From NCBI GenBank assembly GCA_020854065.1, contig JADZGF010000005.1, positions 8,925-72,924 of the forward strand: a DNA stretch of 64,000 nucleotides. The letters are read 5' to 3'. The first letter of the stretch is position 1; each line of letters begins with the position of its first letter. This document shows positions 85 through 63,044 of this stretch, piece after piece. Under the pieces are notes generated by a model. It worked only from the letters and a program-made list of their open reading frames with translations, ran no database searches and had not been told where the DNA came from. This DNA comes from Candidatus Nomurabacteria bacterium (GTDB taxonomy: Bacteria; Patescibacteriota; Minisyncoccia; Phycocordibacterales; SBAW01). The position numbers were made by a program, and so were the translations under genes.

Positions 85-501
85 ATGACAAAAATATCAT
101 CAGCGCGGATAGATATGGAGGGCGGTCGCGTAGACGACTCGGTACTTAAAAGTTTTGCTGAAACTTTGGTTGGTGGGGCAGCGGGGACTAACACCACCTC
201 GACCTACACCGTTGATATCCAAACAGGCAACACCTACCATCTTATTTTAAATGCAAACTGCACCTTTACGTTTAGTAACCCGACTCCAGCAGGCACCTCC
301 TGCTATATCACCATACTCTTGAAACAAGACGGCACTGGCGGGTGGACTGCAACCTGGCCCGCTACAGTGGTCTGGCCAGACGACACTGCTCCAACAGTGA
401 CCACCACTGCAAGTACATGGGTGCTGTATCATTTTTTTACCGTAAATGCGGGCAAGACGTGGTTTGGGGCGGCAACTAATCCTTCCTCTGTATATACATA
501 A
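85..501 (+). CDS. hypothetical protein (Thr/Asn-rich, no recognisable domain)
   Basis: 138 aa ORF with an ATG start, tightly packed between two RCC1 genes. No motif recognised. Confidence 0.4.
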   Translation: MTKISSARIDMEGGRVDDSVLKSFAETLVGGAAGTNTTSTYTVDIQTGNTYHLILNANCTFTFSNPTPAGTSCYITILLKQDGTGGWTATWPATVVWPDDTAPTVTTTASTWVLYHFFTVNAGKTWFGAATNPSSVYT

Positions 502-547: not shown

Positions 548-1654
548 ATGCTCCCGCATCGTGTGTTAACAGTTGCAACAATTCCGGAAGGAGGAAGTCT
601 TTGGGCAACCGGTGGATATGGTAATGGTGTTATCGGCAATAATACCAACAATAACTACTCCTCTCCAGTACAAGTGGGCACACTCGCTACTTGGTCGCAG
701 GTGTCGGCGGGGACTTTACACACCACCGCTGTTAAAACCGACGGTACGTTATGGGCGTGGGGAAATAACGGCGCAGGGCAGGTTGGCGACAACACTGTTA
801 TAACTCGCTCCTCACCAGTACAAGTAGGTACCCTCGCCGATTGGTCACAAGTCTCTGCTGGAGGTACTCATACTGCCGCGGTGAAGACCGATGGCACCTT
901 ATGGGCATGGGGTCAAGGCACGACTGGTGTTGTTGGCGACAATGATAACGTTAATCGTTCCTCTCCGGTTAAAGTGGGCACTCTTTCTACCTGGTCGCAG
1001 GTTTCCGCGGGAGGATCCCACACTGCAGCCGTTAGAACCAACGGCACTTTATGGGCGTGGGGGCAAGGAACCTTAGGTCGCATTGGCCAAAATAACACCA
1101 TCACTCGCTCATCGCCGGTGCAGATTGGTGCACTCACCACCTGGTCACAAGTGTCGGCAGGAGGAAGCCACACTGCCGCAGTTAAGACTGACGGTACTCT
1201 GTGGGTGTGGGGGTATGGCACGTTTGGTGCAGTAGGCGATAATACGAACACGATCCGCTCCTCTCCAGTGCAAGTAGGCACGCTCACCACATGGTTGCAG
1301 GTATCGGCGGGGAAATATCACACTGCCGCGGTGAAGACTGACGGCACCATTTGGGCATGGGGATATAACAGCGCAGGGCAGGTTGGCGACAACTCCACGA
1401 CCACTCGCTCATCGCCGGTGCAAGTAGGGACGCTCACTACTTGGTCACAAGTTTCTCTTCCTGTGGGGGCGAGTCACACTACCGCGATTAAGACCGACGG
1501 GACGCTTTGGGCATGGGGGCTTAATAGCTTTGGTTTTCTCGGTGACAATACTGCTGATAGCCGTTCCTCACCTGTACAAATTGGTTCACGTGTTTGGTCG
1601 AACGTTGCCGCGGGGGGTCTACATACGGTGGCTGTTGGAGGGTCAGTAGGTTAA
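548..1654 (+). CDS. RCC1 (regulator of chromosome condensation)-like beta-propeller repeat protein
   Basis: Seven tandem roughly 53 aa repeats of the form DGTLWAWG.N..GQ.GDN....RSSPVQVG.L..WSQVSAG..HTAAVKT, which is the classic RCC1 blade signature. Confidence 0.85.
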   Translation: MLPHRVLTVATIPEGGSLWATGGYGNGVIGNNTNNNYSSPVQVGTLATWSQVSAGTLHTTAVKTDGTLWAWGNNGAGQVGDNTVITRSSPVQVGTLADWSQVSAGGTHTAAVKTDGTLWAWGQGTTGVVGDNDNVNRSSPVKVGTLSTWSQVSAGGSHTAAVRTNGTLWAWGQGTLGRIGQNNTITRSSPVQIGALTTWSQVSAGGSHTAAVKTDGTLWVWGYGTFGAVGDNTNTIRSSPVQVGTLTTWLQVSAGKYHTAAVKTDGTIWAWGYNSAGQVGDNSTTTRSSPVQVGTLTTWSQVSLPVGASHTTAIKTDGTLWAWGLNSFGFLGDNTADSRSSPVQIGSRVWSNVAAGGLHTVAVGGSVG

Positions 1655-1660
1655 AGTCTT

Positions 1661-3613
1661 TTGTTGCGGGAGTTACTCCTTTTTATATACAATGCCTGCA
1701 TGCACAAAGACCCACTCGACCTACAGCTCGAGGCGAGCATCCGCGGCGACATAGATGAAGCATGGCGTTTATCACAGCTTCTTGAGCAAGAGCGGCCCAC
1801 GGACAACCGCGCTGCATTTAACCGCGGATGGCACTACCTGCGTCTTGGTGATTTACAAAAAGGTTTGGCGCTAACTGAACGAGGAAGACTGGAGGGCGTG
1901 TATGGTTCTCCTGCGCTGAAGACAACCAAACCGCGTTGGCAGGGGGAAGATGTACGCGGCAAAACAATATTACTCCGTCTTGAAGGCGGCTTTGGTGATG
2001 AAATTGTTTTTTCTCGTTTTGCAAAGACTTTTGCCGACAGGGGGGCTCGTGTGATACTTGCAGCTTCAGAATCTATTGTTCCGCTACTCTCTCGGGTGTC
2101 GGGTGTTGCGCAGGCGATGCCACATCGGTTTGTTACCGATGATATGTTTGACTACTGGGTGCCGGGCATGGCCGCACCTCTTGATCTTGGTTTTACATAC
2201 GACACATTGCCAGGTGAGCCGTATGTAGTGCCGCGTGCCGACGCAGTGGCGCACTGGGCGCAGATAATAAAAAGTGACAAGCTAAAAGTAGGTATCCGTT
2301 GGTCAGGTAATCCCAAGTTTGAACACGAGCAACATCGACGCTTTCCTTTTGATGAGTTTTTACAGGCGGTATCACTACCAGGTGTAGAGCTATACAGTCT
2401 CCAGCGCGACCACGATATACGCGACTTGCCGGAACATGTCATTGATCTTCAAGACAAGCTCGTAAGCTGGGAAGATACTGCCGCGGCAATTGCTAACCTC
2501 GATTTAGTTATTACTTCCTGCACCTCTATTGCGCATCTTGCAGCAGCAATGGGGAAGGAAACATGGATTATCATCCCTATACTTCCGTATTACTTATGGG
2601 CCCTGCCAGGTGAAGTGAGTCCATGGTATAAAACCGCGAGACTCTTTCGACAAGAGGTGTTTAAAAACTGGAATGCACCTCTGCAAGGTATACATCGAGC
2701 GCTTGCAGAAAGGGTAGGAGTAGAAGCGCGGGTGGACTATACTAAACCATCCCAAAATCCTATGCCCCCAGCCCCTACACCAACACTTTTTCATAAACCC
2801 CACAGCGCACCGGTGCACAAAAACACCATGCATTTTGTAGCAGGATTGCCGCGTTCAGGCTCGACCGCACTTATGTCAGTCATGGCGCAAAATCCGCGCA
2901 TATTCGCATCTCCTATCTCAGGGCTTGCAGGTATATTTGGCGGTGTACACGCTAATTGGGATAAAAGTGAGTTTCATCAAGAGTTGCCCAACATGGCTGC
3001 AAAGAAACGTACTCTCCGTGCGTTGCTTGAGAACTATCACGAGACTGACCGACCTGTCATTTTAGACAAAGACCGAATATGGGTAATGCATATTGCACTC
3101 CTTGAAGAGGTGCTGGGTCGGAGAGTAAAGATCATTGTGCCGGTGCGGCCCTTGGTTGAGGTCATTGCCTCGTTTGAAGTGCTGCGCCAAAAGAATCCTC
3201 TTGAGTTTACGGGTGCTGATGACTCATTGGGCCCCAGCTCGACACTCGAGAGTCGCGCAGCATATTTTACCGACACCAAGGGACCTATTGGGGTGGCGTA
3301 TAACGCGATGAAAGATGCGGTAACTGCTGGATACTTAGACCGCATGTTGTTTGTGGACTATGGTCGCCTTACCTCTGCCCCTAAAATGCAGCTAAAGCGC
3401 ATTTATGAGTTTTTAGAAGAGCCGTACTTTGAGCATGACTTTAATAAAATTGAGCAGGTTGCTAAAGGTAATAGTCGTGGCGCGCATAAGTTCGAAGGGC
3501 TCCACGATATACGTCCACAGTTTAAAAAAGAGAGCCGCTCGGCGCGCGAGGTGCTTGGCGATGTATATGCTAAATATGACCACCCTGAGCCATGGGCGCC
3601 TTGGATACTCTAA
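1661..3613 (+). CDS. fusion protein: TPR-like N-terminus + GT9 (heptosyltransferase-fold) glycosyltransferase + C-terminal sulfotransferase domain
   Basis: The N-terminal half has GT9-like motifs (KTILLRLEGGFGDEIVFSRF near the start of the catalytic domain; ITSCTSIAHLAAAMGKETWII in the C-lobe). The C-terminal third has a sulfotransferase PAPS-binding 5'-PSB motif (GLPRSGSTAL) and a downstream 3'-PB-like region. Confidence 0.65.
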   Translation: MLRELLLFIYNACMHKDPLDLQLEASIRGDIDEAWRLSQLLEQERPTDNRAAFNRGWHYLRLGDLQKGLALTERGRLEGVYGSPALKTTKPRWQGEDVRGKTILLRLEGGFGDEIVFSRFAKTFADRGARVILAASESIVPLLSRVSGVAQAMPHRFVTDDMFDYWVPGMAAPLDLGFTYDTLPGEPYVVPRADAVAHWAQIIKSDKLKVGIRWSGNPKFEHEQHRRFPFDEFLQAVSLPGVELYSLQRDHDIRDLPEHVIDLQDKLVSWEDTAAAIANLDLVITSCTSIAHLAAAMGKETWIIIPILPYYLWALPGEVSPWYKTARLFRQEVFKNWNAPLQGIHRALAERVGVEARVDYTKPSQNPMPPAPTPTLFHKPHSAPVHKNTMHFVAGLPRSGSTALMSVMAQNPRIFASPISGLAGIFGGVHANWDKSEFHQELPNMAAKKRTLRALLENYHETDRPVILDKDRIWVMHIALLEEVLGRRVKIIVPVRPLVEVIASFEVLRQKNPLEFTGADDSLGPSSTLESRAAYFTDTKGPIGVAYNAMKDAVTAGYLDRMLFVDYGRLTSAPKMQLKRIYEFLEEPYFEHDFNKIEQVAKGNSRGAHKFEGLHDIRPQFKKESRSAREVLGDVYAKYDHPEPWAPWIL

Positions 3614-3616
3614 AGT

Positions 3617-4186
3617 ATGAAAGAAACTGCAAAATGCAAAGCAATGCGCGCGGCACGCGGCGACTTTGCAAAGTACCTGCACGGTGATGGGATAGACATT
3701 GGAGCGGGAGACGACACTCTGGCGGTTGAGAGTGGAACAGTGCGAGGATGGGATCAAAAGGACGGCGATGCGCAAGTGCTTGCAGGTGTCCCTACTAATG
3801 CATATGACTTTGTGTACTCGTCGCATTGTCTCGAGCATATGCGCAACGTAGAGGAGGCGCTTGGAAACTGGACCCGCGTGCTTAAACCAAAAGGGTATCT
3901 GTACGTAGTAGTACCGGATTATATTTTGTACGAAAAACTCACCTGGCCTTCTTTGTATAACACTGACCATAAACAGAGTTTTTCTTTTTTGGTAACACGC
4001 AATATGGTGAAGAGAAGCAACCACTACCATCTCGAGCAAGACCTTTTTCCTTTGTTGCAGCGCTTAGGGTATCGGATACTCTCTGCGGGGATAGAAGATA
4101 CCAATTTTAATTACAACGAAGGGCATGCCGACCAAACACTGGGGAGTGCCTTAGCGCAATTGTGTATCATTGCACAAAAGGTATGA
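3617..4186 (+). CDS. class I SAM-dependent methyltransferase
   Basis: Motif I-like GIDIGAGDD and a downstream hCLEHM acidic motif, with a Methyltransf_11/23-like layout. The stop overlaps the next start (ATGA). Confidence 0.55.
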   Translation: MKETAKCKAMRAARGDFAKYLHGDGIDIGAGDDTLAVESGTVRGWDQKDGDAQVLAGVPTNAYDFVYSSHCLEHMRNVEEALGNWTRVLKPKGYLYVVVPDYILYEKLTWPSLYNTDHKQSFSFLVTRNMVKRSNHYHLEQDLFPLLQRLGYRILSAGIEDTNFNYNEGHADQTLGSALAQLCIIAQKV

Positions 4187-4959
4187 AGCTCGACATTGTT
4201 GTACGTACACACTCAAGAGGGAATGTGCATAACGCTAAAGAATGGGGCGAGCGGTATGTTGGTGCACCTAAAAACGAGGTGATGTTTCGATGTGTTAACT
4301 CACTTGTCACTTCAATCAATCTCGCCGAAGCAGATATACGCGTATGGGTGCTTGATGACAGCTCAGATGAAGCGTCATTGCAGACGTTGCACACCATTAT
4401 AAACAAGTGCCGCTACCCTACAGAATTAATACAACTCCCACCTGAGCAGTGTGGGGTGCAGGGGAGTGCCCTAGCGCAGTTTGAAGCTGGGAAGACGTAC
4501 GGGCGCGAGGTGGTGTACTTTGTCGAGGACGACTATTTGCACACATCAAGTGCGATACAGGAAATGATTGATATGTATGAGTTGGGCAAGAAAAATACCA
4601 AAGGCAAAGAGGTGGCACTTTTCCCTTGTGATTATCCGGATCGATACCAACCAGGCGGCATTAAGTCTTCTTTCATAGTGTATGGAAGCAGACGTCATTG
4701 GCGGACCATACAAGAATCGACCAATACCTGCATGCTTAGTCATGCTCTTTTAGTTGCACACTGGCATCAATTTGAAACACTTGCTAGAAACTATCAACTC
4801 GATCCTGCTGTTACGGAAGAAAACACCGTTAATACTGTATGGCGAGAGCATGCTGTTTTGTTTTCCCCCATACCATCGCTTGCACTCCATGTGCAGTTTA
4901 AGCAGCATAAAGATCCGTATATCGACTGGAAGAGTTGGTGGGACGCTGCGAGGTATTAA
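4183..4959 (+). CDS. family 2-like glycosyltransferase (GT-A fold)
   Basis: VWVLDDSSDE and VYFVEDDYLH (DXD) motifs. The start is placed at MKLDIVV (ATG 4183), overlapping the upstream stop. The ORF track shows an earlier in-frame Met at 4162. Confidence 0.6.
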   Translation: MKLDIVVRTHSRGNVHNAKEWGERYVGAPKNEVMFRCVNSLVTSINLAEADIRVWVLDDSSDEASLQTLHTIINKCRYPTELIQLPPEQCGVQGSALAQFEAGKTYGREVVYFVEDDYLHTSSAIQEMIDMYELGKKNTKGKEVALFPCDYPDRYQPGGIKSSFIVYGSRRHWRTIQESTNTCMLSHALLVAHWHQFETLARNYQLDPAVTEENTVNTVWREHAVLFSPIPSLALHVQFKQHKDPYIDWKSWWDAARY

Positions 4960-5555
4960 CCTTTCTTCCAAAGACTCAGTATCTGATTGTGGTTGCCAAG
5001 ATAGGGATAATATCCAACAAGGCTGAAGTGTTTGGTCATAAGATCAGAGACCTTGATACCATCGTCGTGCCATACGGCCATGCCATTTTTTGGTTCAGTG
5101 GGGACGTAACGTGCAGGCTCGTTAAGCAGCACCACTGTGCCGCCAGGTTTTAATACCGAGTTGATCTTTTTTATTTCTTCTTCAGGTTTCTCGGCATGTT
5201 GCAGCGCAAACGCCGCAAGTGCTATGTCGATGTTTTGTTCGTGATGGTTAAACTTTGGGTTAAAGCGGCCATCACTCACATATTTTTGTGCTTCATGAAG
5301 CATCCCCGCGCTTATATCAACCCCAATTACTTTGCAGCCCACGCGCTCGATAAGTCTCTTGGCCACACGACCCATGCCGCAGCCAAAGTCGAGCACTATC
5401 GATGATTGAATAAGAGGGACATTTTTTATCATAAACTCAACCAAATGGTCAGTTTCTTCTGCGAATTTGTGTGGTCGTGTTGGGTCGGGCACCAACACGA
5501 TATCTTTGGCATGCGCTAGGTTAAGAGGATCAAACGTTTCTTTGTGGTATTTCAT
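4956..5555 (-). CDS. class I SAM-dependent methyltransferase
   Basis: VLDFGCGMGR (motif I) and VLLNEP (motif IV-like) in a Methyltransf_11-like arrangement. Confidence 0.65.
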   Translation of the reverse strand: MKYHKETFDPLNLAHAKDIVLVPDPTRPHKFAEETDHLVEFMIKNVPLIQSSIVLDFGCGMGRVAKRLIERVGCKVIGVDISAGMLHEAQKYVSDGRFNPKFNHHEQNIDIALAAFALQHAEKPEEEIKKINSVLKPGGTVVLLNEPARYVPTEPKNGMAVWHDDGIKVSDLMTKHFSLVGYYPYLGNHNQILSLWKKG

Positions 5556-5935
5556 TGTGCGTAGTGCTTTTCGTCGCGGAGCGTCGAGCCTATGTGTTCG
5601 TCAATTTTTTGCTTAGTAGCGATTCGCTTTGCGTTGCTTTTGTGTACAAGTCCCGAATGTTTTGCAGCTTTCTCCCATTCCTTTTTGCGTAGGTATATGC
5701 GTACTTTGTCTTCAAGCTGCCATTGGCGCTTGTTGATGGTAAAGAGGGTGAGGTGTAATTTACGCAGTGCCTTGCTTTTAGGGAGGGTTTTGTAGATTTT
5801 TTTTAGCTCAGTTAAATGTTTTTTGGTATTAGCGATTTTTGCATGATCGGTAAAGTAGAGGAGTTTAATTTCGAGTATGGTTATGCGGTCGATGAGGTCG
5901 CCAGCCGATGAAGGTATTAGGATTTTCATACGCAA
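5552..5935 (-). CDS. hypothetical basic protein
   Basis: 127 aa ORF translationally coupled to its neighbours (4 nt overlap with the downstream gene). Lys-rich with predicted helices. No domain recognised. Confidence 0.4.
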   Translation of the reverse strand: MRMKILIPSSAGDLIDRITILEIKLLYFTDHAKIANTKKHLTELKKIYKTLPKSKALRKLHLTLFTINKRQWQLEDKVRIYLRKKEWEKAAKHSGLVHKSNAKRIATKQKIDEHIGSTLRDEKHYAQ

Positions 5936-7534
5936 CTACTGTACCTCTTGCGTGTATAGTGTTGCAACTTCTTTTGCCACCTCCTCAGGCTCTGGCAGAT
6001 ATACTGACCAATCAGCCACTGGGACATCGACGTGCATTGCCTCGCCATTGACTGGTTCGCCCAAAATGTCGTCGGCCAACAAGCGCTTGTAGAGCGCTTT
6101 TGTTTTGTATCCCGTTGACCCTTTGCGGTATGGAAAGACGAGGTCTGGGTGTTTGCAGGTAGCGAGCATAACTATCCAGTTATCAAACGCCCCTGCAAGC
6201 TGCACCGGTGAACTATCGTTCGTAAGTAATACCGGCGCAGCCTCCATGAGTGCAAAGAGCTCACCAAGCTCAAGAGTGTTGCGCAAGTCTGTACCGCTTG
6301 GTGGGCACACCACTGGCACAAGTCCTGTTTTGTCTCCATCAACAGACGAGTGGCCTTTGCCGATAAGGCATACGATAAGGCCCTCTTTGGCGAGAAGATC
6401 AACAGTCGATTGCCACCAAGGCAGTGGTAATGTTTTGCTTGCCCAACTTTTGCCGGCATGGACAAGTACTACCTTTGACATATCAATGCCCTGCATCCGC
6501 GCAGCAAGACGTTCACGGTCTGTAGCGTTAGGTACCAAACGGATTTCACGATCTTTAAGCGGAAGCATGCGCATGAGCATGGTCATGGCATGGAAGTCGA
6601 TCATGTGGGTAAGGAGAAACGACACCGAGCGAGAGAGTGCCGAGTCGGGGTTGGGGAGCGTCCAAAAGGTGCGGTATACAACTCCTTGAGGATTAAAGGA
6701 ATTGTGTACATGCACGGGTACACCTAAGTGTTCGTACATGCGTGGCCAAAAACAGGAGATACGAACATTGTCAGTTGGATACAGATGCTCGCGCAAGTAT
6801 CGGATAGCGGGCTCAGCAGAGGCGTGATCGCCCAACCCACCAAACACACTCACCATAATATTCTTCTTGTACTGGTGTTTACCTACATTGGCTGACCATG
6901 TTTCTAAATCATTGCGCATGACGGGCACAAGTACCTCGGGAGAAGGGTAATTACTGTAGTGGATGATATAAGAATCAAAGCGCTCTTCGCCTGTCGTGTC
7001 GAGTGCGGGGAGGCGGTTAAATACATAGGGCAGGGGCAGTATGGCGGTTTCTTTAGCGGCAAACACCGCGCTCATATATTGATTGATCGAAAAACCGAGC
7101 ATTGGGTCTTGTGGGTGCGCAAACAAGTCGCGGTTTTGTTTTGACACTACCAACACGCCGCTGTCATAGATGGTTGGTTTTGTAATTTCTGTACCAAGCA
7201 GCATGGTTGCCGATTGGGCAAGTTCTTTGGTTTTTTCATCAGCGTTTTGCAAAGGGTACGCTCCCACCTTTTCTTCGGCGACGATCTCAAACAGGTCGGG
7301 ACAATCTTCGCGCACGATACAATCGGGTGCTATGTATATGACACGGTCGTATTTCTCGAGTGCATCGTAGAGTTGCAATATGCCCCATGCAGGATGCACG
7401 CCTGATAGTTTTTCCTCCTTTATTTCATCAAAGTCGGCACCAATGCGGCTCGCGTACGCTTTAATCGAAGGCGCACTTACATCGGCAAGTGTTTTGTAGT
7501 CTCTCAGGGTTGAGGTAAGGACAAGTTTTTTCAT
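5936..7534 (-). CDS. two-domain glycosyltransferase: N-terminal GT-A (GT8/GT32-like, DXD) + C-terminal GT9-like (heptosyltransferase fold)
   Basis: The N-terminal half has VIYIAPDCIV and DSGVLVV, typical of GT-A nucleotide-sugar transferases. The C-terminal half has VVLVHAGKSWASKTLP....GLIVCLIGKG and LLTNDSSPVQLAGAFD, matching GT9 motifs. The start is placed at MKKLVLTS (7534), which overlaps the upstream gene's stop. The ORF track extends to 7582. Confidence 0.6.
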   Translation of the reverse strand: MKKLVLTSTLRDYKTLADVSAPSIKAYASRIGADFDEIKEEKLSGVHPAWGILQLYDALEKYDRVIYIAPDCIVREDCPDLFEIVAEEKVGAYPLQNADEKTKELAQSATMLLGTEITKPTIYDSGVLVVSKQNRDLFAHPQDPMLGFSINQYMSAVFAAKETAILPLPYVFNRLPALDTTGEERFDSYIIHYSNYPSPEVLVPVMRNDLETWSANVGKHQYKKNIMVSVFGGLGDHASAEPAIRYLREHLYPTDNVRISCFWPRMYEHLGVPVHVHNSFNPQGVVYRTFWTLPNPDSALSRSVSFLLTHMIDFHAMTMLMRMLPLKDREIRLVPNATDRERLAARMQGIDMSKVVLVHAGKSWASKTLPLPWWQSTVDLLAKEGLIVCLIGKGHSSVDGDKTGLVPVVCPPSGTDLRNTLELGELFALMEAAPVLLTNDSSPVQLAGAFDNWIVMLATCKHPDLVFPYRKGSTGYKTKALYKRLLADDILGEPVNGEAMHVDVPVADWSVYLPEPEEVAKEVATLYTQEVQ

Positions 7535-8760
7535 CGGTCGTTTCGTATATACGTGCAGGCGTGGTGCACAGCTCCTACCCAATCACCATACCTTGGCTGG
7601 CGCAGCGCAACCATGTTTGGGTACCATGGCGCACTGTCCAGTGGCAGCCAGTAGTGGTGTGGGGCGTGTGGCAAGAGTACGAGTGTTTTTTTACCCAAGT
7701 TGCCTGCCAAGTGTGCGGTCGAGGTGTCGTTAGTGACTATATAGTCCATAAGGCTCATTACCGAAGCTGTGCTCTCCCACGACGGGAGCCCCGCTTCGGT
7801 GTCATACACAGGAGCGTCTTTAGGGAGTGTGTTGTTGCCTGCGTCGCGCTGTAAGCTGTAGAGTTGCCCCACCTCGTTTAGTTTTAGTATTTCTTGTGCA
7901 GGAGGTGATTTGCGCTCGAGATAATCAAATGCCCAGTTTCCCTGCCAATGTATGCCAATCTTTACGCGGCCATTTGCTACTTCCGTAATTTTTGGTTCCC
8001 ATTTTTTAACCTCTTCCTTAAGTGGTGCAAAAGTAGGAAATTCCATACCAACCAAAGGATCCCTAATAGCAAAGAGCGGGATCATACTCATGGCGGGGAT
8101 GTAGTAGTCGTATTCGTCTGGGTTAATGGTTTTTATCGCCCGTACGTCTTTCATTCCGGACATGCGGGCGATAAGGGGAACAAGCCGTTGATGTGCGCCG
8201 ACTATGACCGTTGCGCCGTGTTTCTCGAGCCACGGGGCAAAGCGTGCGTAGGCCAGTTCATCGCCAAAGCCGCCTTCGAGTGCAAGTAATACTCTTTTGC
8301 CCTCAAGCAACATTCCTTTTATATACTTCTTCTCTATTGGTAGAGCGTGCGAGGCGTCTATGCGATAAATACCAATCTCTGGCTCGAGCTCGGTAAAGCC
8401 ATGAGCCGTGTCGCCATGTCTGAGCATGTGCCAGCCGGTAAGGTATGCGAGTCCAGGAGTCCCTCGAGGAACCTGGCGTGCGAGTCTTTCGCTTTCATCA
8501 AACTCGCCTATGTATCGAAGATAGTGCGCTAATTTTATTTGGTAATTAAAATTCCCTGGCTCTACAGCGAGCAGGGCTCTCATGATCGCCGCTGCTTCTG
8601 GTGCACGCATAAGATTAAAGAGGCACTCTGCTTCGACTGCTTGGAGCAGTTCATCAGTGCGGCCCAGCGCCTGCAGTTGTTTAACACACGCAAGTGCTTC
8701 ACTAAACTGTTTTTGCGCAAAGTACTCTTGGCCCCTGCGTATAAGCTCTTGTTCGTCCAT
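7531..8760 (-). CDS. TPR-repeat + GT9-like (heptosyltransferase-fold) glycosyltransferase
   Basis: N-terminal TPR-like helices. KRVLLALEGGFGDELAYARF and IVTNDTSTAHLAGNLGKKTLVLLP are paralogous to the N-terminal half of the 1661..3613 protein. Confidence 0.65.
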   Translation of the reverse strand: MDEQELIRRGQEYFAQKQFSEALACVKQLQALGRTDELLQAVEAECLFNLMRAPEAAAIMRALLAVEPGNFNYQIKLAHYLRYIGEFDESERLARQVPRGTPGLAYLTGWHMLRHGDTAHGFTELEPEIGIYRIDASHALPIEKKYIKGMLLEGKRVLLALEGGFGDELAYARFAPWLEKHGATVIVGAHQRLVPLIARMSGMKDVRAIKTINPDEYDYYIPAMSMIPLFAIRDPLVGMEFPTFAPLKEEVKKWEPKITEVANGRVKIGIHWQGNWAFDYLERKSPPAQEILKLNEVGQLYSLQRDAGNNTLPKDAPVYDTEAGLPSWESTASVMSLMDYIVTNDTSTAHLAGNLGKKTLVLLPHAPHHYWLPLDSAPWYPNMVALRQPRYGDWVGAVHHACTYIRNDR

Positions 8761-8762
8761 GG

Positions 8763-9401
8763 TTACAGTAAAGCCCCTGGGTTATGTCCCTGTGCCGCGA
8801 GCCACGCTGCTCCGCGCGCAGGCTTAACGACGCGAGGCTTCATAGTTATCTCTACACAAATATTGTTTTGATGTTGCTGCAAATGTTCCAGGTCGTTCAT
8901 GGTAAGGCGGCCCGCTTCTACCTCGGTAGCAATTTTTTGCGTGTAGCTGTAGTTGACGTCTTTTTGTTGCAGGTCGATGTCTACACCGGTGAAGAGTCCA
9001 AGCTTTGTCTCACGGATACCTTGCTCGGCCATCTGTATGTTGCGTGCCTGGTCAAACATAGCTATGCCAACTGGAGTAATTGGTCGCTTATGAGTTGGGT
9101 CATGGGCAAAGTTCTCATGATTCCAATGGGGGACGGTAATATCTATGACTGCACCATTTTTACAAATACGGTAGAGTTCCTTCCAGATATTTAAATAGGC
9201 CGCTGTAGTTTCGCCTAAGTGTTCAAGTGTGTGTTCAAGCTTCACCTCATCAACTGAACTATCTTCCCAAGGCCACGGTGTTTTCTCGAGGTCCCACACC
9301 ACATCAGGTTGGCACTCAGGGGCGGAGTCTACATTGATATAGCCCGGATACTTTTTAAATCCGCATCCGAGGTTGAGCAGTACGGTGGTTTGAGTACTCA
9401 T
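8763..9401 (-). CDS. class I SAM-dependent methyltransferase-like protein
   Basis: VLLNLGCGFKKYPGYINVD (motif I) and a later LEHTLEHL, consistent with Methyltransf_11/23. Confidence 0.55.
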   Translation of the reverse strand: MSTQTTVLLNLGCGFKKYPGYINVDSAPECQPDVVWDLEKTPWPWEDSSVDEVKLEHTLEHLGETTAAYLNIWKELYRICKNGAVIDITVPHWNHENFAHDPTHKRPITPVGIAMFDQARNIQMAEQGIRETKLGLFTGVDIDLQQKDVNYSYTQKIATEVEAGRLTMNDLEHLQQHQNNICVEITMKPRVVKPARGAAWLAAQGHNPGALL

Positions 9402-10792
9402 GATTGTTTTGGTTCGTCCTTAATTTGGGCGGCCCTGCGCCAATCGCTAAAGGGCTCGGCATCCTTCTTTTTATTATGCGCGAGTGTGGGAATAGGGCAG
9501 AGGGCTGGGACACTCCTTAGCTCATCGTATCCCTTTCGGGCTATGGACAGCAACTCTTGCGGGATAAACAACAATTCTTTGTGTGGGGTGCATACTCGCC
9601 AATGTTTTCGCGTGCCGAGTATGAGTTTAGAATCGACCAGTCTGTCCTTTTTATAATGCGTCGCATCATCTGCGGGGCACAAAAGGAGGGGACCAAGTTC
9701 TTTACTCAATAGTTTGTAGGTATAAAAAAGTTCATGCAGAGTCGATGCTTCATAGGCGTACTCCCCGGAAGCGAAAAACAAAAAATCGGCATCATGTGCG
9801 AGTGATACTGCCTGCTCCAAAAGATCTCCTTCCGGCGCGACTATCGTGTAGGGTACGGGGCACAATGACAGTATCTGCTCAACCTCACTTCCGTGAAGAT
9901 TCTCGGCTTCATATATAAAGGTGGCATTGATACGTACGGCGTTGTGCCTCTCGAGCAAGAGCAGCGAGTAGAGTAGTGACTTCAGTAGTTCGGGATATCC
10001 CTGGGGTGGTGCATACACAATATGGAGCGAAGGTTTTTCTGCGTCAGCGGGCAATGCGGCAGAGGCTTGTGGCACCGGCATGTCGTGGTGTTTGTAGTAC
10101 TCAGCGTTAAATACAAGGGCCCCTGATGAGTCAAGCGTGTAGGAAGAATGTCCGAAGTGTTTATGTTGATAGGCAAGTTTGCGCCCGACATCTTCGCGGC
10201 GCCACGTGTGATGTATAACTTTGGCAATCGAAGGTGGCACAATGCCGGGTATGCGAGTGTATAAAGAAGACCCGTCATTAAATGCTACTTCGTTGTCAAA
10301 TTTAAAGTTCCGGATGCCGCCGGAGCGATCGGTGCGGATAATGCGTGGGGGAAAGAATGCGCCAGGAGAGGAAACCCCAAACACGTGGTTATCAAAATGT
10401 ACGTGGTAGTAGTCAAACTGGGGAGTTTTTTCTACAAACGCAATAATGTCTTTTATCTGTTGCGCTGTGTAATGCTCGTCGCCATCAAGGATCCATATAG
10501 CATCGACTCCTTTTGCAAGAAGTGCATAGAGGACGAGTGATCGAACCTCTTTTTCATACATTGGTTGCTCATCAAGAAAGAGTGCATCAAAATGGCGACT
10601 GTTTGCCCGGAGTGCTTCTCGAGTTGTTTGGTCGTTGTCTGGGTAACCAAGTTCGGCGTACTCCTTAAACTGCACGCTTGCAGCGGCAAGAACAATATCG
10701 TATCCCTGCGCTTTAACCTCAAGCCATGGGGTGATAGTTCTCTCTAACAAGTCTGGTGCACCATAAAAACATCCCAAGACGCCGATTTTCAT
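9398..10792 (-). CDS. putative glycosyltransferase (GT-A-like, DXD motif ILDGDEH) with a C-terminal domain of unknown function
   Basis: A DGDEH acidic motif after a Rossmann-like N-terminus. Weak similarity only. Sits inside the glycosyltransferase cluster. Confidence 0.45.
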   Translation of the reverse strand: MKIGVLGCFYGAPDLLERTITPWLEVKAQGYDIVLAAASVQFKEYAELGYPDNDQTTREALRANSRHFDALFLDEQPMYEKEVRSLVLYALLAKGVDAIWILDGDEHYTAQQIKDIIAFVEKTPQFDYYHVHFDNHVFGVSSPGAFFPPRIIRTDRSGGIRNFKFDNEVAFNDGSSLYTRIPGIVPPSIAKVIHHTWRREDVGRKLAYQHKHFGHSSYTLDSSGALVFNAEYYKHHDMPVPQASAALPADAEKPSLHIVYAPPQGYPELLKSLLYSLLLLERHNAVRINATFIYEAENLHGSEVEQILSLCPVPYTIVAPEGDLLEQAVSLAHDADFLFFASGEYAYEASTLHELFYTYKLLSKELGPLLLCPADDATHYKKDRLVDSKLILGTRKHWRVCTPHKELLFIPQELLSIARKGYDELRSVPALCPIPTLAHNKKKDAEPFSDWRRAAQIKDEPKQS

Positions 10793-10869
10793 GGGGCTAT
10801 CATACTATAGAGGGCTTTGTATGGGTACAAAGGGACATTTTTTGCCTTGGCGTGGGCTATACTACAAAC

Positions 10870-11973
10870 ATGAGGTTCTTCAACTTCCTCAAATACAACA
10901 ACGCCGTACCGATCGGTCTTTTCTTGTTGTTTGGTATGGGAAGTGCTGCGCTGGCTTCTACCCCTGAGGTTCAGCAGGCGGTGTATAACACGCAAGAATC
11001 GGTGGTCAGTATCGACAACAGTTATATCGTCAATGCTGATATAGAAAATTTTGAGTATCAGCTCATGGTAACGGGCATAACCGAGGACGAAGAATTGTAT
11101 TACGTAACGTACACGTATCAGACGATTGATTTGCAACAAGAGGTTTGGCAAGAAGTTACAAAAGGAGGAACGCTTAAATTTACAAAAAAAGAATTAGAAG
11201 GTAGAGATCTTGGGCTTGAGGTAAGTAAGCAATTGGGCGAGCTTATCGCAAGCGAGATGAAGTATCTTGCCGACGTACAAAAGTATGAGCGTGCAAACGG
11301 CGAGTCCCGCAAAGTAGTTGCAACTGAGTACTCAGGACTCATCGGCCGTTTCTTCGATCCGACGCAAAAAGAATTCCCGGGGTATAAACCAGTAATTGAG
11401 CCACCGAAACCTGAAGAAGAGGAACAGACTGCTGCGGTAGCGAATGCGGTAACAGATCCTACACAACCTGTTCCTCCTGAGGAGAAGAAACCGAAAGAGA
11501 GCACGGTGTTAAGTCTCCAGGTGCTTGGCGAAAATCCGGTGCGCGTGGCGCTCGGCAGCGAATACCGCGACCTCGGCGCACTTTTAAGTGATCCAACTGA
11601 TCCATCAATAACCTACAAGGCGTTTGTAAACGGTGAGGAGAAAGTCGCTCCGATAACGGTGACCTCAAATGACGATGCGGTATTTGAAATTGAGTATCGT
11701 GCGGTTGATCAGAACGGCATAAAAGTATTTGTGCGTCGCATTGTGCTCTTCGGCGATGCTCCTGATCCAGGCACCGCAAAGACATTTGGAGGAAACCGCG
11801 ACCTACGACAGGAAGAACCACCTGCTGAAGAACCTCCAGCCGAAGAGCCACCGGCAGAGGAACCGCCCGCTGAAACTCCTCCTGCTGAAGAACCTCCCGC
11901 AGAGGAGCCACCTGCGGAAGAACCGCCTGTCGAAGAGTCGTCCACACCGCCTGCCGAAGAGCCGGCACAATAG
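10870..11973 (+). CDS. secreted protein with Ig-like (DUF5011-type) domain and C-terminal (P-A-E-E-P)n tandem repeats
   Basis: Signal peptide MRFFNFLKYNNAVPIGLFLLFGMGSAALAS. A segment LQVLGENPVRVALGSEYRDLGALLSDPTDPSITY resembles bacterial Ig-like surface domains. Eight or more EEPPA repeats precede the stop. Start chosen at ATG 10870; the upstream part of the ORF overlaps the convergent gene. Confidence 0.55.
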   Translation: MRFFNFLKYNNAVPIGLFLLFGMGSAALASTPEVQQAVYNTQESVVSIDNSYIVNADIENFEYQLMVTGITEDEELYYVTYTYQTIDLQQEVWQEVTKGGTLKFTKKELEGRDLGLEVSKQLGELIASEMKYLADVQKYERANGESRKVVATEYSGLIGRFFDPTQKEFPGYKPVIEPPKPEEEEQTAAVANAVTDPTQPVPPEEKKPKESTVLSLQVLGENPVRVALGSEYRDLGALLSDPTDPSITYKAFVNGEEKVAPITVTSNDDAVFEIEYRAVDQNGIKVFVRRIVLFGDAPDPGTAKTFGGNRDLRQEEPPAEEPPAEEPPAEEPPAETPPAEEPPAEEPPAEEPPVEESSTPPAEEPAQ

Positions 11974-17024: not shown

Positions 17025-17909
17025 ATGGCTCTGAGCGATACGCAGGTTAATAGCCTTGAACTGCGCGCGCGCGACATCCGCGCCACTATTATTGAGATGC
17101 TCACCGCTGCAGGCTCCGGGCACACCGCGGGACCTCTCGGCATGGCGGATATCTTTGCGGCGCTCTATTTTCACATCCTCTCGCACGATCCCGCACATCC
17201 TGAATGGGATTTGCGCGATCGTCTTATCCTCTCCAATGGCCACATCACGCCGGTACGCTATGCTGCGATGGCACATGCAGGCTATTTCCCCGTTGAAGAG
17301 TGTTTAACGCTTCGTAAGTTTGGGTCGCGTCTGCAAGGTCACCCGGAGCGTCAAAAGCTCCCTGGGGTAGAGACTACTTCAGGTCCTCTCGGTTCGGGAC
17401 TCGGTCAGGCTGCCGGATATGCATATGCGGCTCGGATGGACGGAAAGAAATTCCGCACCTTTTGTTTAATGAGCGACGGGGAACAAGATACCGGCAACAT
17501 CTGGGAGTCTGCGATGTTTGCGGGGAATAATCGACTGAGCAACCTCACCGCTATTATTGATCGCAACAATATTCAGATAAACGGAATGACGGAGAATGTT
17601 ATGCCACTTGAGAACATGCGTGCAAAATACGAAGCGTTTAACTGGCATGTACTTGAGATTGATGGACATAACATGCGTGCCATTGTTGATGCGTGTGATG
17701 AAGCAGCGGCAATTTATGAGCGTCCAACCGTAATCATTGCACACACCATCCCTGGCAGAGGAGTACGTGAAATAGAGTTTGACTATCGCTGGCATGGCGT
17801 GCCGCCGGGCAAAGGTCCAACTGACAAAGTTCCGGCAGACAAACAGGCAGAAGTGTTCTTAAAAGAACTCCGGACTTTGAAAGGCAAAATTCAAAGCGAA
17901 CATGAATAG
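17025..17909 (+). CDS. tktA: transketolase, N-terminal (TPP-binding) subunit
   Basis: GSGHTAGPLGMADIFAALYF......LSNGH matches the transketolase PP-domain motifs. 294 aa, typical of split Tkt. Confidence 0.9.
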   Translation: MALSDTQVNSLELRARDIRATIIEMLTAAGSGHTAGPLGMADIFAALYFHILSHDPAHPEWDLRDRLILSNGHITPVRYAAMAHAGYFPVEECLTLRKFGSRLQGHPERQKLPGVETTSGPLGSGLGQAAGYAYAARMDGKKFRTFCLMSDGEQDTGNIWESAMFAGNNRLSNLTAIIDRNNIQINGMTENVMPLENMRAKYEAFNWHVLEIDGHNMRAIVDACDEAAAIYERPTVIIAHTIPGRGVREIEFDYRWHGVPPGKGPTDKVPADKQAEVFLKELRTLKGKIQSEHE

Positions 17910-17916
17910 CTTTTTT

Positions 17917-18468
17917 ATGCGCAAATCGCGAGGTTTTACCCTTATCGAACTCCTGGTTGTTATTGCCATCATCGGCATACTTGCCTCTATTGTGATGGTT
18001 AGTCTCAATGGTGCGCGTGCTAAAGGGCGAGATGCTCGGCGACTTGCTGACTTGAAGTCATTTGAATTTGCACTCAATCTCTACTATGAGGCGAACGAAC
18101 ACTATCCATATACCAACTGCTCTGGCTCTAACAGCTGGGCCAGTTTTGACAGTCCTACCTATTCGCCCAATTTGGTATGTGATACGCCAGGTGGAGCAGG
18201 AGTTACGCTTTCACAAAAGATGAGCCCATACACCGATCCCTTAAAAGACCCGGGAGGTGCAACTGGTGATGCGGGTTATTTGTATATCAACCAAGGAGGA
18301 CGATTCGATTATTGCGTCTTGGTATGGCGCACCCCTGAAAACCTCAACAATTTCCCGCCTGAGACGATACCCGCATCTCAGTGCACTGCATGGAATAGTT
18401 CCGGAGTGTGCACCAGTGGCACTAATGCGTTGTATATAGGGAAAGGTATCTATCAAAACGGCTGTTAA
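17917..18468 (+). CDS. type IV pilin / pseudopilin (prepilin with class III signal peptide)
   Basis: MRKSRG|FTLIELLVVIAIIGILASIV: a short basic leader ending in Gly, Phe at +1, Glu at +5. A C-terminal Cys pair (CTAWNSSGVCTSG...NGC) is consistent with a disulfide-bonded D-region. The start overlaps the tktA stop by a few nt. Confidence 0.8.
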   Translation: MRKSRGFTLIELLVVIAIIGILASIVMVSLNGARAKGRDARRLADLKSFEFALNLYYEANEHYPYTNCSGSNSWASFDSPTYSPNLVCDTPGGAGVTLSQKMSPYTDPLKDPGGATGDAGYLYINQGGRFDYCVLVWRTPENLNNFPPETIPASQCTAWNSSGVCTSGTNALYIGKGIYQNGC

Positions 18469-18478
18469 TCTTGTATAT

Positions 18479-56195: not shown

Positions 56196-63044
<6,849 letters not shown>

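What the first reader, a model, noticed from the sequence alone, without database searches (positions are those of the whole stretch)
1661..3613. Single polypeptide combining a GT9-like glycosyltransferase and a PAPS-type sulfotransferase
The 650 aa ORF has a TPR-like N-terminus, a full GT9-like catalytic region (RLEGGFGDEIVFSRF ... ITSCTSIAHLAAAMGKETWII), and then, after a Pro-rich linker (PMPPAPTPTLFHKP), a sulfotransferase domain with the PAPS 5'-phosphosulfate-binding loop GLPRSGSTAL. A covalent fusion would couple sugar transfer and sulfation of the same acceptor. I do not know of a characterised GT9-sulfotransferase fusion.
Basis: partly seen in the sequence, partly recalled or inferred. 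Interest (0 to 1): 0.7.

Follow-up and report, generated by a model that had tools for sequence, protein, structure and literature searches.

The report
Fused sugar-transferase/sulfotransferase beside an RCC1 adhesin
One protein of an uncultured ultra-small bacterium really does join a heptosyltransferase-like sugar-adding domain to a sulfate-adding domain, and its relatives in phages, predatory bacteria and other ultra-small bacteria nearly always sit next to a propeller-shaped (RCC1) adhesin gene, which suggests an undescribed system that decorates attachment proteins.

Summary
ORF 1661..3613 is uninterrupted, and its probable start is the ATG at 1700, giving 637 aa. It is GenBank MCC7500434.1, annotated only as "sulfotransferase domain-containing protein", from a Candidatus Nomurabacteria genome.

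- **Not a chimera:** among 264 retrieved relatives, 58 have the same domain order and 63 the reverse order. Split adjacent genes also occur, including in cultured cyanophages.
- **GT domain:** it keeps the GT9 catalytic Gly-Asp. It carries an invariant Cys where WaaC has Asp261, and it scores below Pfam's GT9 threshold.
- **New finding:** this Cys-type domain lies within 1.5 kb of an RCC1-repeat gene in 78 of 80 viral loci. The same pairing occurs in Bdellovibrio and Patescibacteria. Methyltransferase, APS-kinase and ADP-heptose-synthesis genes often accompany it.
- **Best reading:** a cytoplasmic enzyme heptosylates an RCC1-type adhesin or fibre and then sulfates the glycan. The acceptor and the donor are inferred, not shown.
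- **Novelty:** an uncharacterised variant built from known enzyme kinds.

The parts
1661..3613 (+). Whole ORF. It is 650 aa from the TTG at 1661; the probable real start is the ATG at 1700, giving 637 aa (MCC7500434.1).
1718..1897 (+). TPR-like N-terminal module: four helices forming two hairpins.
   Evidence: AF2 helices at model residues 5-65; consensus TPR proteins hit at profile positions 15-59, E 2.4e-5; weak Pfam TPR_16 match
1898..2716 (+). GT9-like GT-B glycosyltransferase domain of the Cys-type subfamily.
1982..2002 (+). EGGFGDE motif. Asp113 lies at the position of the GT9 catalytic Asp (WaaC D13).
   Evidence: Asp at this column in 546 of 553 aligned family domains, and in all 119 ST-fused ones; aligned to the N-terminal GD of WaaF and 3tov
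2465..2566 (+). C-terminal nucleotide-sugar motif SWEDT...DLVITSCTSIAHLAAAMGKETW. Cys287 replaces WaaC Asp261.
   Evidence: Pfam GT9 positions 175-204 match here; the profile alignment places WaaC VSVDTGLSHL on this stretch; Cys in 115/119 ST-fused domains against Asp in 399/427 domains of the multi-copy giants
2744..2824 (+). Disordered Pro-rich interdomain linker.
   Evidence: pLDDT below 50 at model residues 349-372; length varies among homologues
2825..3610 (+). PAPS-type sulfotransferase domain with a TPST-like fold.
2843..2866 (+). 5'-phosphosulfate-binding loop GLPRSGST, containing Arg398.
   Evidence: aligned to TPST GVPRSGTT; conserved in at least 90% of 126 ST domains
3131..3178 (+). 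3'-phosphate-binding strand and helix. Arg496 and Ser504 have the same +8 spacing as TPST2 R183 and S191.
   Evidence: the TPST2 residue numbers are from memory of the literature
548..1654 (+). RCC1-repeat beta-propeller protein, ending 7 nt before the ORF. It is the conserved partner gene and the proposed acceptor.
   Evidence: Pfam RCC1 and WD40_RLD; partner-gene census
85..501 (+). Tail-fibre-like domain protein. It is fused to the RCC1 propeller as a single protein in locus L001.
   Evidence: phrog_9017 tail fiber, E 4.8e-15; L001 855-aa protein
3617..4186 (+). SAM methyltransferase.
4162..4959 (+). GT2-like glycosyltransferase (weak match), conserved in 14 related loci.
4956..5555 (-). 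SAM methyltransferase.
5552..5935 (-). DUF6165/DUF4254-like small protein, also present in L001.
5936..7582 (-). Two-domain protein: GT8-like plus GT9.
   Evidence: Pfam GT9 22.7 bits and GT8 17.9 bits
7531..8760 (-). Paralogous TPR + GT9-like protein, 35% identical, of the Asp type (TNDTSTAHL).
8763..9401 (-). Methyltransferase-like protein. The same family is fused to the GT domain in cyanophage BUCT-ZZ01, lies next to it in Bdellovibrio, and is present in 67/80 viral loci.

Best explanation
The ORF encodes a soluble, cytoplasmic, bifunctional tailoring enzyme. It belongs to a conserved module whose constant partner is an RCC1-repeat beta-propeller protein, which is a fibre or adhesin component.

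Proposed mechanism:
1. The short TPR module docks the protein substrate.
2. The GT9-like GT-B domain transfers a sugar, most likely a heptose from ADP-heptose, onto the RCC1-type protein. It would use Asp113 as the catalytic base.
3. The C-terminal PAPS-dependent sulfotransferase then O-sulfates that glycan. The neighbouring methyltransferases and glycosyltransferases extend and methylate it.
4. The decorated adhesin is then exported or assembled.

What is shown: the three-part architecture, the intact PAPS-binding residues, the GT9 fold with its catalytic Gly-Asp, repeated fusion and fission of the two domains, and the gene context.

What is inferred: that the acceptor is the RCC1 protein, that the donor is ADP-heptose, and that the sulfate goes onto the sugar rather than onto the protein.

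For: **Catalytic residues.**
- Asp113 is conserved in all 119 ST-fused domains, and His292, Gln248, Thr273 and Trp214 are invariant among the ST-fused and single-domain relatives.
- The ST residues R398, K470, R496 and S504 are conserved in at least 90% of 126 domains. They correspond to TPST2 R78, K158, R183 and S191.

**Functional coupling of the two domains.**
- Among 264 retrieved relatives there are 58 GT-ST and 63 ST-GT single polypeptides.
- Adjacent split genes occur in many viral contigs.
- In cultured cyanophage S-SRM01 the two are separate genes about 4 kb apart, each following an RCC1 gene.
- A GT-methyltransferase fusion occurs in cyanophage BUCT-ZZ01, and ST-GT-MT triple fusions also exist.
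- A neighbour-joining tree suggests several independent fusions.

**RCC1 partner.**
- An RCC1-like gene lies within 1.5 kb in 78/80 viral loci, 26/47 genome loci (19/22 with enough flank carry one somewhere in the locus) and 8/8 context loci.
- It is the immediately upstream gene in the window, L001, L003, L004 and BUCT-ZZ01.
- It occurs only once in the 64-kb window.
- In Bdellovibrio Bd16 the neighbouring RCC1 proteins begin with twin-arginine-like signal sequences (read by eye). That would fit modification of a folded protein in the cytoplasm before export.

**Donor and cofactor supply.**
- HldE-like genes occur in 18 related loci and ADP-heptose 6-epimerase-like genes in 13. In 17 of the 18 HldE loci the Cys-type GT motif was found; the motif search found none in L048.
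- APS-kinase-like genes occur in 28/80 viral loci.

**No lipid-linked machinery.** None of the 11 proteins encoded between 85 and 10792 has a TM-like segment. The Pfam scans of the cluster found no flippase or polymerase, and none appeared among the 25 commonest families in the viral neighbour census.

**Host background.** The host is a Candidatus Nomurabacteria bacterium. By established knowledge of Patescibacteria, this group lacks LPS, which is the usual GT9 acceptor.

Against: - No experiment or structural complex links the enzyme to the RCC1 protein. Adjacency could instead mean that the propeller binds or processes the same glycan.
- Pfam's GT9 threshold is not met.
- The WaaC Asp261 position is Cys, so the donor or the chemistry may differ from characterised GT9 enzymes.
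- No ADP-heptose or PAPS-synthesis gene lies in the 64-kb window.
- The best structural match of the ST is a protein-tyrosine sulfotransferase, so sulfation of the protein rather than the sugar is not excluded.
- The published view of glycosyltransferases in the tail-fibre regions of T4-like marine phages is modification of the host O-antigen (PMC7029224).
Confidence: 0.45

Rival explanations
1. There are two independent protein modifications. The GT9-like domain O-glycosylates the adhesin. The TPST-like domain sulfates tyrosine (or another side chain) of the same protein rather than the sugar.
Against: In the HMMER alignment, the position of the TPST catalytic Glu (TPST2 E99) falls in the segment around the conserved Ser-Gly-Leu (S420), and no Glu is conserved there. 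The window's RCC1 protein has few Tyr residues in acidic contexts (read from the sequence). In other relatives a methyltransferase takes the ST's place as the fusion partner of the GT domain. That pattern is typical of glycan tailoring.
Confidence: 0.17
2. The module builds or modifies a non-protein surface glycan, belonging either to the organism itself or, in phages, to the infected host (for example LPS core or O-antigen, to block superinfection). The RCC1 propeller would be a lectin or enzyme for that glycan rather than the acceptor.
For: All LPS-type GT9 enzymes act on glycolipids. Phage papers interpret rfaE and the glycosyltransferases of tail-fibre hypervariable regions as host O-chain modification (PMC7029224; PMC7378029). 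GT25, RfbT-like and FkbM methyltransferases in the viral loci are typical of LPS clusters. The RCC1 propeller of the Saccharibacteria pilin PilX2 resembles lectins (PMC11623550).
Against: The window organism is a Nomurabacteria bacterium, a group without LPS by established knowledge. The cluster has no membrane protein, flippase, polymerase or initiating phosphoglycosyltransferase. The same pairing occurs in Bdellovibrio, Patescibacteria and phages with unrelated hosts. A TPR module points to a protein partner.
Confidence: 0.2
3. The GT9-like domain is a non-catalytic scaffold or substrate-recruiting domain, and only the sulfotransferase is active.
Against: The catalytic Gly-Asp, R225, Q248, T273, H292 and Cys287 itself are strictly conserved across sequences only about 40% identical. 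The domain also occurs without any ST, in Bdellovibrio and in cyanophage BUCT-ZZ01. ADP-heptose synthesis genes co-occur with it.
Confidence: 0.1
4. The fusion is an assembly or gene-calling artefact that joins two neighbouring genes.
For: In many viral contigs the GT and ST are adjacent separate ORFs, so a lost stop codon could mimic a fusion.
Against: The ORF is continuous. The exact protein is in a cluster of four sequences from separate sources. P0001 (90% identical) was seen on 7 contigs. There are 58 same-order and 63 reverse-order single polypeptides from NCBI, JGI, ENA and Logan assemblies. The linker is conserved as a variable Pro-rich spacer.
Confidence: 0.02

Closest known systems
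LPS heptosyltransferases WaaC/WaaF and other CAZy GT9 enzymes (PDB 2h1f, 1psw, 3tov)
   Different: The sequence scores below Pfam's GT9 threshold. Cys replaces WaaC Asp261. A TPR module and a fused sulfotransferase are present. The host has no LPS, and the gene context is an RCC1 adhesin gene rather than a core-LPS operon.
Bacterial autotransporter heptosyltransferases TibC/Aah (PDB 4rap)
   Different: No sequence-level match was found. TibC's iron-binding dodecamer features were not tested. The acceptor here would be a beta-propeller rather than a beta-helix autotransporter. TibC has no TPR module and no sulfotransferase.
Tyrosylprotein sulfotransferases TPST1/TPST2 (PDB 5wri, 3ap3)
   Same: They are the best fold and sequence matches for the C-terminal domain. 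The PSB loop contains Arg, and the Lys, Arg and Ser equivalents of K158, R183 and S191 are conserved.
   Different: Identity is only 14%. The catalytic Glu99 position is not conserved. The window's domain is cytoplasmic and bacterial, not Golgi-lumenal. It is fused to a glycosyltransferase.
TPR-plus-GT-B protein glycosyltransferases (OGT/SPINDLY of GT41; Caulobacter FlmG)
   Different: The GT domain is of the GT9 type, not GT41. Only about two TPR hairpins are present.
Multi-copy TPR-GT9-like giant proteins (1,300-3,100 aa, with 3-6 tandem copies)
   Same: They belong to the same domain family. The search returned 36,213 representatives at E<=1e-3, and these giants made up most of the 150 listed. 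Pfam GT9 is above threshold there.
   Different: Those domains keep Asp at the WaaC D261 position (399/427), and none among the 135 retrieved carries an ST. The window's domain belongs to a distinct Cys-type subfamily.
NDST (heparan sulfate N-deacetylase/N-sulfotransferase) and the ST domains of CurM/OLS polyketide synthases
   Different: The partner domains and the pathways differ. None of them is fused to a glycosyltransferase of the GT9 type.

Membership tests
CAZy GT9 / Pfam PF01075 (heptosyltransferases) | GT-B fold whose closest structural neighbours are GT9 enzymes | tested here: met
CAZy GT9 / Pfam PF01075 (heptosyltransferases) | Sequence score at or above Pfam's gathering threshold | tested here: not met
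   13.9 bits against 22, E 0.034, with only aa 271-300 matched. A profile of the wider family puts WaaF, 3tov and WaaC on top, but at E 0.1-0.6.
CAZy GT9 / Pfam PF01075 (heptosyltransferases) | N-terminal Gly-Asp catalytic base (WaaC Asp13; residue role recalled from the literature) | tested here: met
   Asp113 is conserved in 119/119 ST-fused domains and 420/427 giant-protein domains. It aligns to the GD of WaaF and 3tov.
CAZy GT9 / Pfam PF01075 (heptosyltransferases) | Acidic residue in the C-terminal 'D(T/S)G..H' motif (WaaC Asp261; residue role recalled from the literature) | tested here: not met
   Cys287 occupies this position. It is Cys in 115/119 ST-fused domains and 7/7 single-domain relatives. 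The column was identified by a profile alignment to WaaC VSVDTGLSHL.
CAZy GT9 / Pfam PF01075 (heptosyltransferases) | Basic residue in the 'K.WP' motif (WaaC Lys192) | tested here: inconclusive
   R225 in 'RRFP' is R or K in all family members. The equivalence rests on motif matching by eye, not on a computed alignment.
CAZy GT9 / Pfam PF01075 (heptosyltransferases) | Use of ADP-heptose as donor | not testable with these tools
   Indirect support only. HldE-like and ADP-heptose 6-epimerase-like genes lie within 6 kb in 18 and 13 related loci, almost all carrying the Cys-type GT motif. None is in the window.
PAPS-dependent sulfotransferases (Pfam PF00685 / PF13469) | Score above the curated thresholds | tested here: met
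   40.7 bits (cutoff 22) and 40.2 bits (cutoff 27)
PAPS-dependent sulfotransferases (Pfam PF00685 / PF13469) | 5'-phosphosulfate-binding loop and 3'-phosphate-binding Arg/Ser | tested here: met
   GLPRSGST aligns to TPST GVPRSGTT. R398, R496 and S504 are conserved in at least 90% of 126 domains.
PAPS-dependent sulfotransferases (Pfam PF00685 / PF13469) | Sulfotransferase fold rather than a generic P-loop NTPase | tested here: met
Tyrosylprotein sulfotransferase (TPST) | Catalytic Glu after the PSB loop (TPST2 Glu99; residue role recalled from the literature) | tested here: not met
   The HMMER alignment shows no Glu conserved at that position, which falls in the segment around the conserved Ser-Gly-Leu (S420). 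I therefore file the domain as TPST-like in fold, not as a TPST.
Tyrosylprotein sulfotransferase (TPST) | Protein tyrosine as acceptor | not testable with these tools
Bacterial autotransporter heptosyltransferases (TibC/Aah) | Soluble GT9-fold enzyme encoded next to the repeat adhesin it modifies | tested here: inconclusive

The most novel reading that the evidence does not exclude
The Cys-type GT9-like enzyme, its fused or adjacent sulfotransferase and the partner methyltransferase form a dedicated cytoplasmic system. This system would O-heptosylate RCC1 beta-propeller receptor-binding proteins and then sulfate and methylate the sugar. It would be shared by T4-like cyanophages, other phages, Patescibacteria episymbionts and predatory Bdellovibrio. 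If so, it is a previously unrecognised class of sulfated glycoprotein adhesin used by organisms that must attach to other cells. Some phages would bring their own ADP-heptose and PAPS supply.
Probability: 0.3. Interest if true: 0.8.

Novelty: new variant of a known kind. Interest (0 to 1): 0.58.

Why it matters
Sulfated glycans are rare and poorly understood in bacteria and are, to my knowledge, undescribed on phage particles. If correct, this finding gives a specific and widespread enzyme module: 434 IMG/VR contigs, many Patescibacteria and many Bdellovibrionota. The module would chemically decorate the propeller-type adhesins that these organisms probably use to bind their hosts or prey.

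That would bear on three questions: phage host range, how ultra-small episymbiotic bacteria recognise their hosts, and how Bdellovibrio recognises prey.

The idea is directly testable, because split or alternative versions exist in cultured systems: Synechococcus phages S-SRM01 and BUCT-ZZ01, and Bdellovibrio bacteriovorus Bd16. It would also correct the public annotation, which currently names only the sulfotransferase half.

Tried and rejected
- **Phage origin of the window.** Early hits suggested a phage (tail-fibre PHROG, DNA polymerase PHROG). I rejected this. The window carries DnaE, a fused RpoB-RpoC, ribosomal proteins S2 and L25, a release factor, tRNA synthetases and pentose-phosphate enzymes. 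Exact look-up gives Candidatus Nomurabacteria. Megablast against phage genomes found nothing.
- **Assembly chimera.** Rejected.
- **Membership in the TPST family.** Rejected because the catalytic Glu is missing.
- **APS kinase, HldE or HldD in the window.** tblastn found none.
- **PfkB kinase at 20005..20994 as an HldE-type heptose kinase.** It scores better as a generic ribokinase and is far below all cutoffs, so it is not informative.
- **NCBIfam scan of the ORF.** No family matched.
- **Foldseek against AFDB.** The library was unavailable. The BFVD viral library has no full-length two-domain match, only matches to each half.
- **Literature searches**. Terms covered GT9-sulfotransferase fusions, phage sulfotransferases, Patescibacteria sulfation, RCC1 in Bdellovibrio and Patescibacteria, and phage heptosylation. 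No description of this module turned up. The S-SRM01 genome paper does not mention the genes.
- **A glycosylation sequon in the RCC1 repeats.** The 'SSPVQ(V/I)G' motif recurs in each blade, but similar 'S/T-x-P-V' strings are common in RCC1 repeats generally. I draw no conclusion.
- **My first count of 'GS' viral loci** lumped true fusions with adjacent split genes. This was corrected after ORF calling.
Full report
**1. The observation**

The ORF listing shows one uninterrupted ORF at 1661..3613 on the + strand, 650 aa from a TTG. The in-frame ATG at 1700 is the likelier start, for two reasons. Homologues begin at the equivalent Met. The exact 637-aa sequence is in GenBank as MCC7500434.1, 'sulfotransferase domain-containing protein [Candidatus Nomurabacteria bacterium]', on a 92-kb contig.

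The window is therefore a piece of a Patescibacteria chromosome, not a phage. It also carries DnaE, a fused RpoB-RpoC, GyrB, RNase R, ribosomal proteins S2 and L25, a release factor, tRNA-Thr and pentose-phosphate enzymes.

**2. Domain identity**

- **Sulfotransferase half.** Pfam places aa 392-598 in Sulfotransfer_1 (40.7 bits, cutoff 22) and Sulfotransfer_3 (40.2 bits, cutoff 27). PHROGs matches aa 388-645 to phrog_27463, of unknown function, with E 4.5e-45.
- **N-terminal half by sequence.** It gives only a sub-threshold GT9 hit (13.9 bits against 22, aa 271-300) and weak TPR hits. It is 35% identical (E 6e-53) to the neighbouring 409-aa TPR/GT9-like ORF 7531..8760.
- **Model.** An AlphaFold2 model built on 52 same-order homologues has mean pLDDT 89.3 and pTM 0.72. 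Only the linker (model residues 349-372) is below 50.
- **Profile search of PDB sequences.** This agrees: TPST1 at E 6.6e-7, and consensus TPR proteins at profile positions 15-59.

**3. Catalytic residues**

I aligned 553 GT-domain segments from the retrieved relatives.
- The Gly-Asp of EGGFGDE (Asp113) is invariant in the ST-fused domains and nearly so elsewhere.
- A family profile searched against the PDB returns only GT9 heptosyltransferases at the top, though weakly (E 0.1-0.6). It aligns this Gly-Asp with the N-terminal GD of WaaF and 3tov, and it aligns the family's 'vDT..aHLA' with WaaC 'VSVDTGLSHL'.
- From the literature as I recall it, WaaC Asp13 and Asp261 are the two key residues. 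The window keeps the first. It has Cys287 at the second.
- That Cys is present in 115/119 ST-fused domains and in 7/7 closely related single-domain proteins. By contrast, 399/427 domains of the multi-copy TPR-GT9 giant proteins keep Asp.

The window's domain thus belongs to a distinct 'Cys-type' subfamily of a very large family. That family has 36,213 representatives at E<=1e-3, and its giant members do pass Pfam GT9.

In the ST domain, G395-L-P-R398-x-G400-x-T402, K470, R496 and S504 are conserved in at least 90% of 126 domains. These correspond to TPST2 R78, K158, R183 and S191, including the +8 spacing from Arg to Ser. The TPST catalytic Glu99 position falls in the segment around a conserved Ser-Gly-Leu, and no Glu is conserved there. 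PAPS binding is therefore well supported. Membership in the TPST family is not.

**4. Not an artefact, and not rare**

The search for homologous proteins returned 1,818 hits. Among the 264 sequences retrieved across searches, the architectures were as follows.

| Architecture | Count |
|---|---|
| GT-ST single polypeptide (window's order) | 58 |
| ST-GT single polypeptide (reverse order) | 63 |
| GT domain alone | 7 |
| ST domain alone | 1 |
| Multi-GT giant proteins | 135 |

Further points:
- Triple ST-GT-methyltransferase fusions exist: P0065, 795 aa, and locus L021.
- In many IMG/VR contigs the two domains are adjacent separate ORFs of about 345 aa and about 264 aa. Others, such as L067 and L079, are fused.
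- In cultured Synechococcus phage S-SRM01 they are separate genes about 4 kb apart: gp338, a 'TPR protein' of the Cys type, and gp345, a 'sulfotransferase' 31% identical over 260 aa to the window's ST half. Each directly follows an RCC1 gene in the tail-fibre region.
- In cultured phage BUCT-ZZ01 the Cys-type GT domain (44% identical) is fused to a methyltransferase-like domain instead. That domain is homologous to window ORF 8763..9401.
- An unsupported NJ tree places GT-ST fusions in two clades and ST-GT fusions in at least two, which suggests repeated fusion and fission.

This is the classic signature of two activities that work on one pathway.

**5. Conserved context, the main new result**

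In the window, the gene ending 7 nt upstream (548..1654) is a seven-repeat RCC1 beta-propeller. It is the only RCC1 gene in 64 kb.

The immediately upstream gene is also an RCC1-repeat protein in:
- L001, a 353-kb contig;
- L003, a 982-kb Patescibacteria contig, where the protein is 1,090 aa;
- L004-6, phage contigs of 45-64 kb;
- BUCT-ZZ01, where it follows the tail fibre and a tail-assembly-chaperone-like gene.

A tblastn census gave these counts.

| Feature | Viral loci (80) | Genome loci (47) | Context loci (8) |
|---|---|---|---|
| RCC1-like gene within 1.5 kb of the GT gene | 78 | 26 | 8 |
| RCC1-like gene in locus, among loci with at least 3 kb on both flanks | 59/59 | 19/22 | 8/8 |
| MT_8763-like methyltransferase in locus | 67 | 9 | 5 |
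| APS-kinase-like gene in locus | 28 | 0 | 3 |

In Bdellovibrio bacteriovorus Bd16 (a complete genome) the gene order is: a 1,038-aa fibre-like protein, then a 336-aa Cys-type GT, then that methyltransferase, then two RCC1 proteins of about 1,080 aa. Both RCC1 proteins begin with twin-arginine-like signal sequences, as read by eye.

A Pfam census covered 139 neighbouring ORFs from 15 dereplicated viral loci. It shows T4 neck and gp15 genes, tail assembly chaperones, FkbM and RfbT-like methyltransferases, GT25, APS kinase, and PfkB, cytidylyltransferase-like and epimerase genes. NCBIfam identifies the last group as follows:
- an HldE-like protein (E 5.7e-87), whose adenylyltransferase domain TIGR02199 scores 182.4 bits against a cutoff of 181.5;
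- an ADP-glyceromanno-heptose 6-epimerase-like protein (E 2.4e-60, below its cutoff).

HldE-like genes occur in 18 related loci and epimerase-like genes in 13. The Cys-type motif was found in 17 of the 18 HldE loci; the motif search found none in L048.

**6. Mechanism**

All 11 proteins encoded between 85 and 10792 lack TM-like segments. The Pfam scans of the cluster found no flippase, polymerase or initiating phosphoglycosyltransferase. Patescibacteria lack LPS, by established knowledge. A GT9-fold enzyme with a TPR module, encoded next to a repeat adhesin, resembles TibC/Aah, which heptosylate autotransporter adhesins in the cytoplasm.

My preferred reading follows from this. The GT domain heptosylates the RCC1-type adhesin or fibre protein. 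The fused ST, together with the partner methyltransferases, tailors the sugar. Phages often supply their own ADP-heptose and PAPS.

A paper on Saccharibacteria shows that an RCC1-propeller minor pilin (PilX2) is needed for host binding. That pilin is predicted, in silico only, to be O-glycosylated (PMC11623550).

The acceptor, the donor and the site of sulfation are inferences. I give this reading 0.45. The rivals are:
- tyrosine sulfation together with glycosylation (0.17);
- a non-protein glycan, with the propeller acting as a lectin, which is also the published view for phage tail-fibre-region glycosyltransferases (PMC7029224) (0.20);
- a non-catalytic GT domain (0.10);
- an artefact (0.02).

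**7. Novelty and verdict**

Two corrections apply: the GT9 similarity is structural and incomplete (Cys replaces Asp, and the Pfam score is below threshold), and the fusion is common in metagenomes.

Public annotation names only the sulfotransferase half. I found no paper describing the fusion or the RCC1-linked module.

It is a new variant of known enzyme kinds. The conserved association with RCC1 adhesins across phages, Patescibacteria and Bdellovibrio raises its interest, and cultured systems are available to test it.

Noticed in passing
window 56196..63044 (+): A single 2,282-aa ORF carries all RpoB domains followed by all RpoC domains, so the RNA polymerase beta and beta' subunits are fused.
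   Followed up: no
window 85..501 and 548..1654 (+): A tail-fibre-like domain ORF (phrog_9017) and the RCC1 ORF lie 46 nt apart in different frames. In L001 one 855-aa protein carries both parts, so the window's pair may be a split or frameshifted gene, or a true two-gene version.
   Followed up: partly
window 17025..19462 (+): Transketolase is split into N-terminal (17025..17909) and C-terminal (18479..19462) genes, with a pilin-like gene carrying an N-terminal methylation motif (17902..18468) between them.
   Followed up: no
window 47181..48080 (+): NusB and NUDIX hydrolase domains are fused in one 299-aa protein.
   Followed up: no
window 32588..33721 (-): A 377-aa protein best matches NCBIfam 'PheS-related mystery ligase SrmL' (232 bits, below the cutoff of 300). 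It lies next to a PgaC/cellulose-synthase-like GT2 at 31299..32531.
   Followed up: no
window 11989..14895 (+) and 10756..11973 (+): Just past the soluble glycosylation cluster lie two other proteins. One is a 968-aa protein with an N-terminal hydrophobic segment and Calx-beta, LCCL and EGF-like domains. The other is a Pro-rich extensin-like 405-aa protein with one TM-like segment. Both are possible surface proteins and alternative acceptors.
   Followed up: no
window 5936..7582 (-) and 7531..8760 (-): The same cluster holds two further GT9-related proteins. One is a GT8-like plus GT9 two-domain protein. The other is an Asp-type TPR-GT9 paralogue of the finding. The cluster therefore carries three GT9-fold domains in a bacterium expected to lack LPS.
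   Followed up: partly
L063:8570-9403 (and 31 other loci, mostly viral): A 277-292-aa protein joins an APS-kinase-like N-terminal half to an NMN-adenylyltransferase/cytidylyltransferase-like C-terminal part. It could be a miniature PAPS-synthesis enzyme encoded by phages. The matches are weak.
   Followed up: partly
proteins P0121-P0264 (from the representative search): The TPR-GT9-like domain family is very large, with 36,213 representatives at 50% identity. The listed hits are dominated by proteins of 1,300-3,100 aa with 3-6 tandem copies of TPR plus a GT9-like domain. Their function appears to be uncharacterised.
   Followed up: partly
L073:200-5938 and equivalent ORFs in T4-like viral loci: Proteins of 1,400-1,970 aa made almost entirely of RCC1 repeats (26 repeat matches in L073) lie beside neck and tail genes and directly upstream of the GT/ST genes.
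   Followed up: partly
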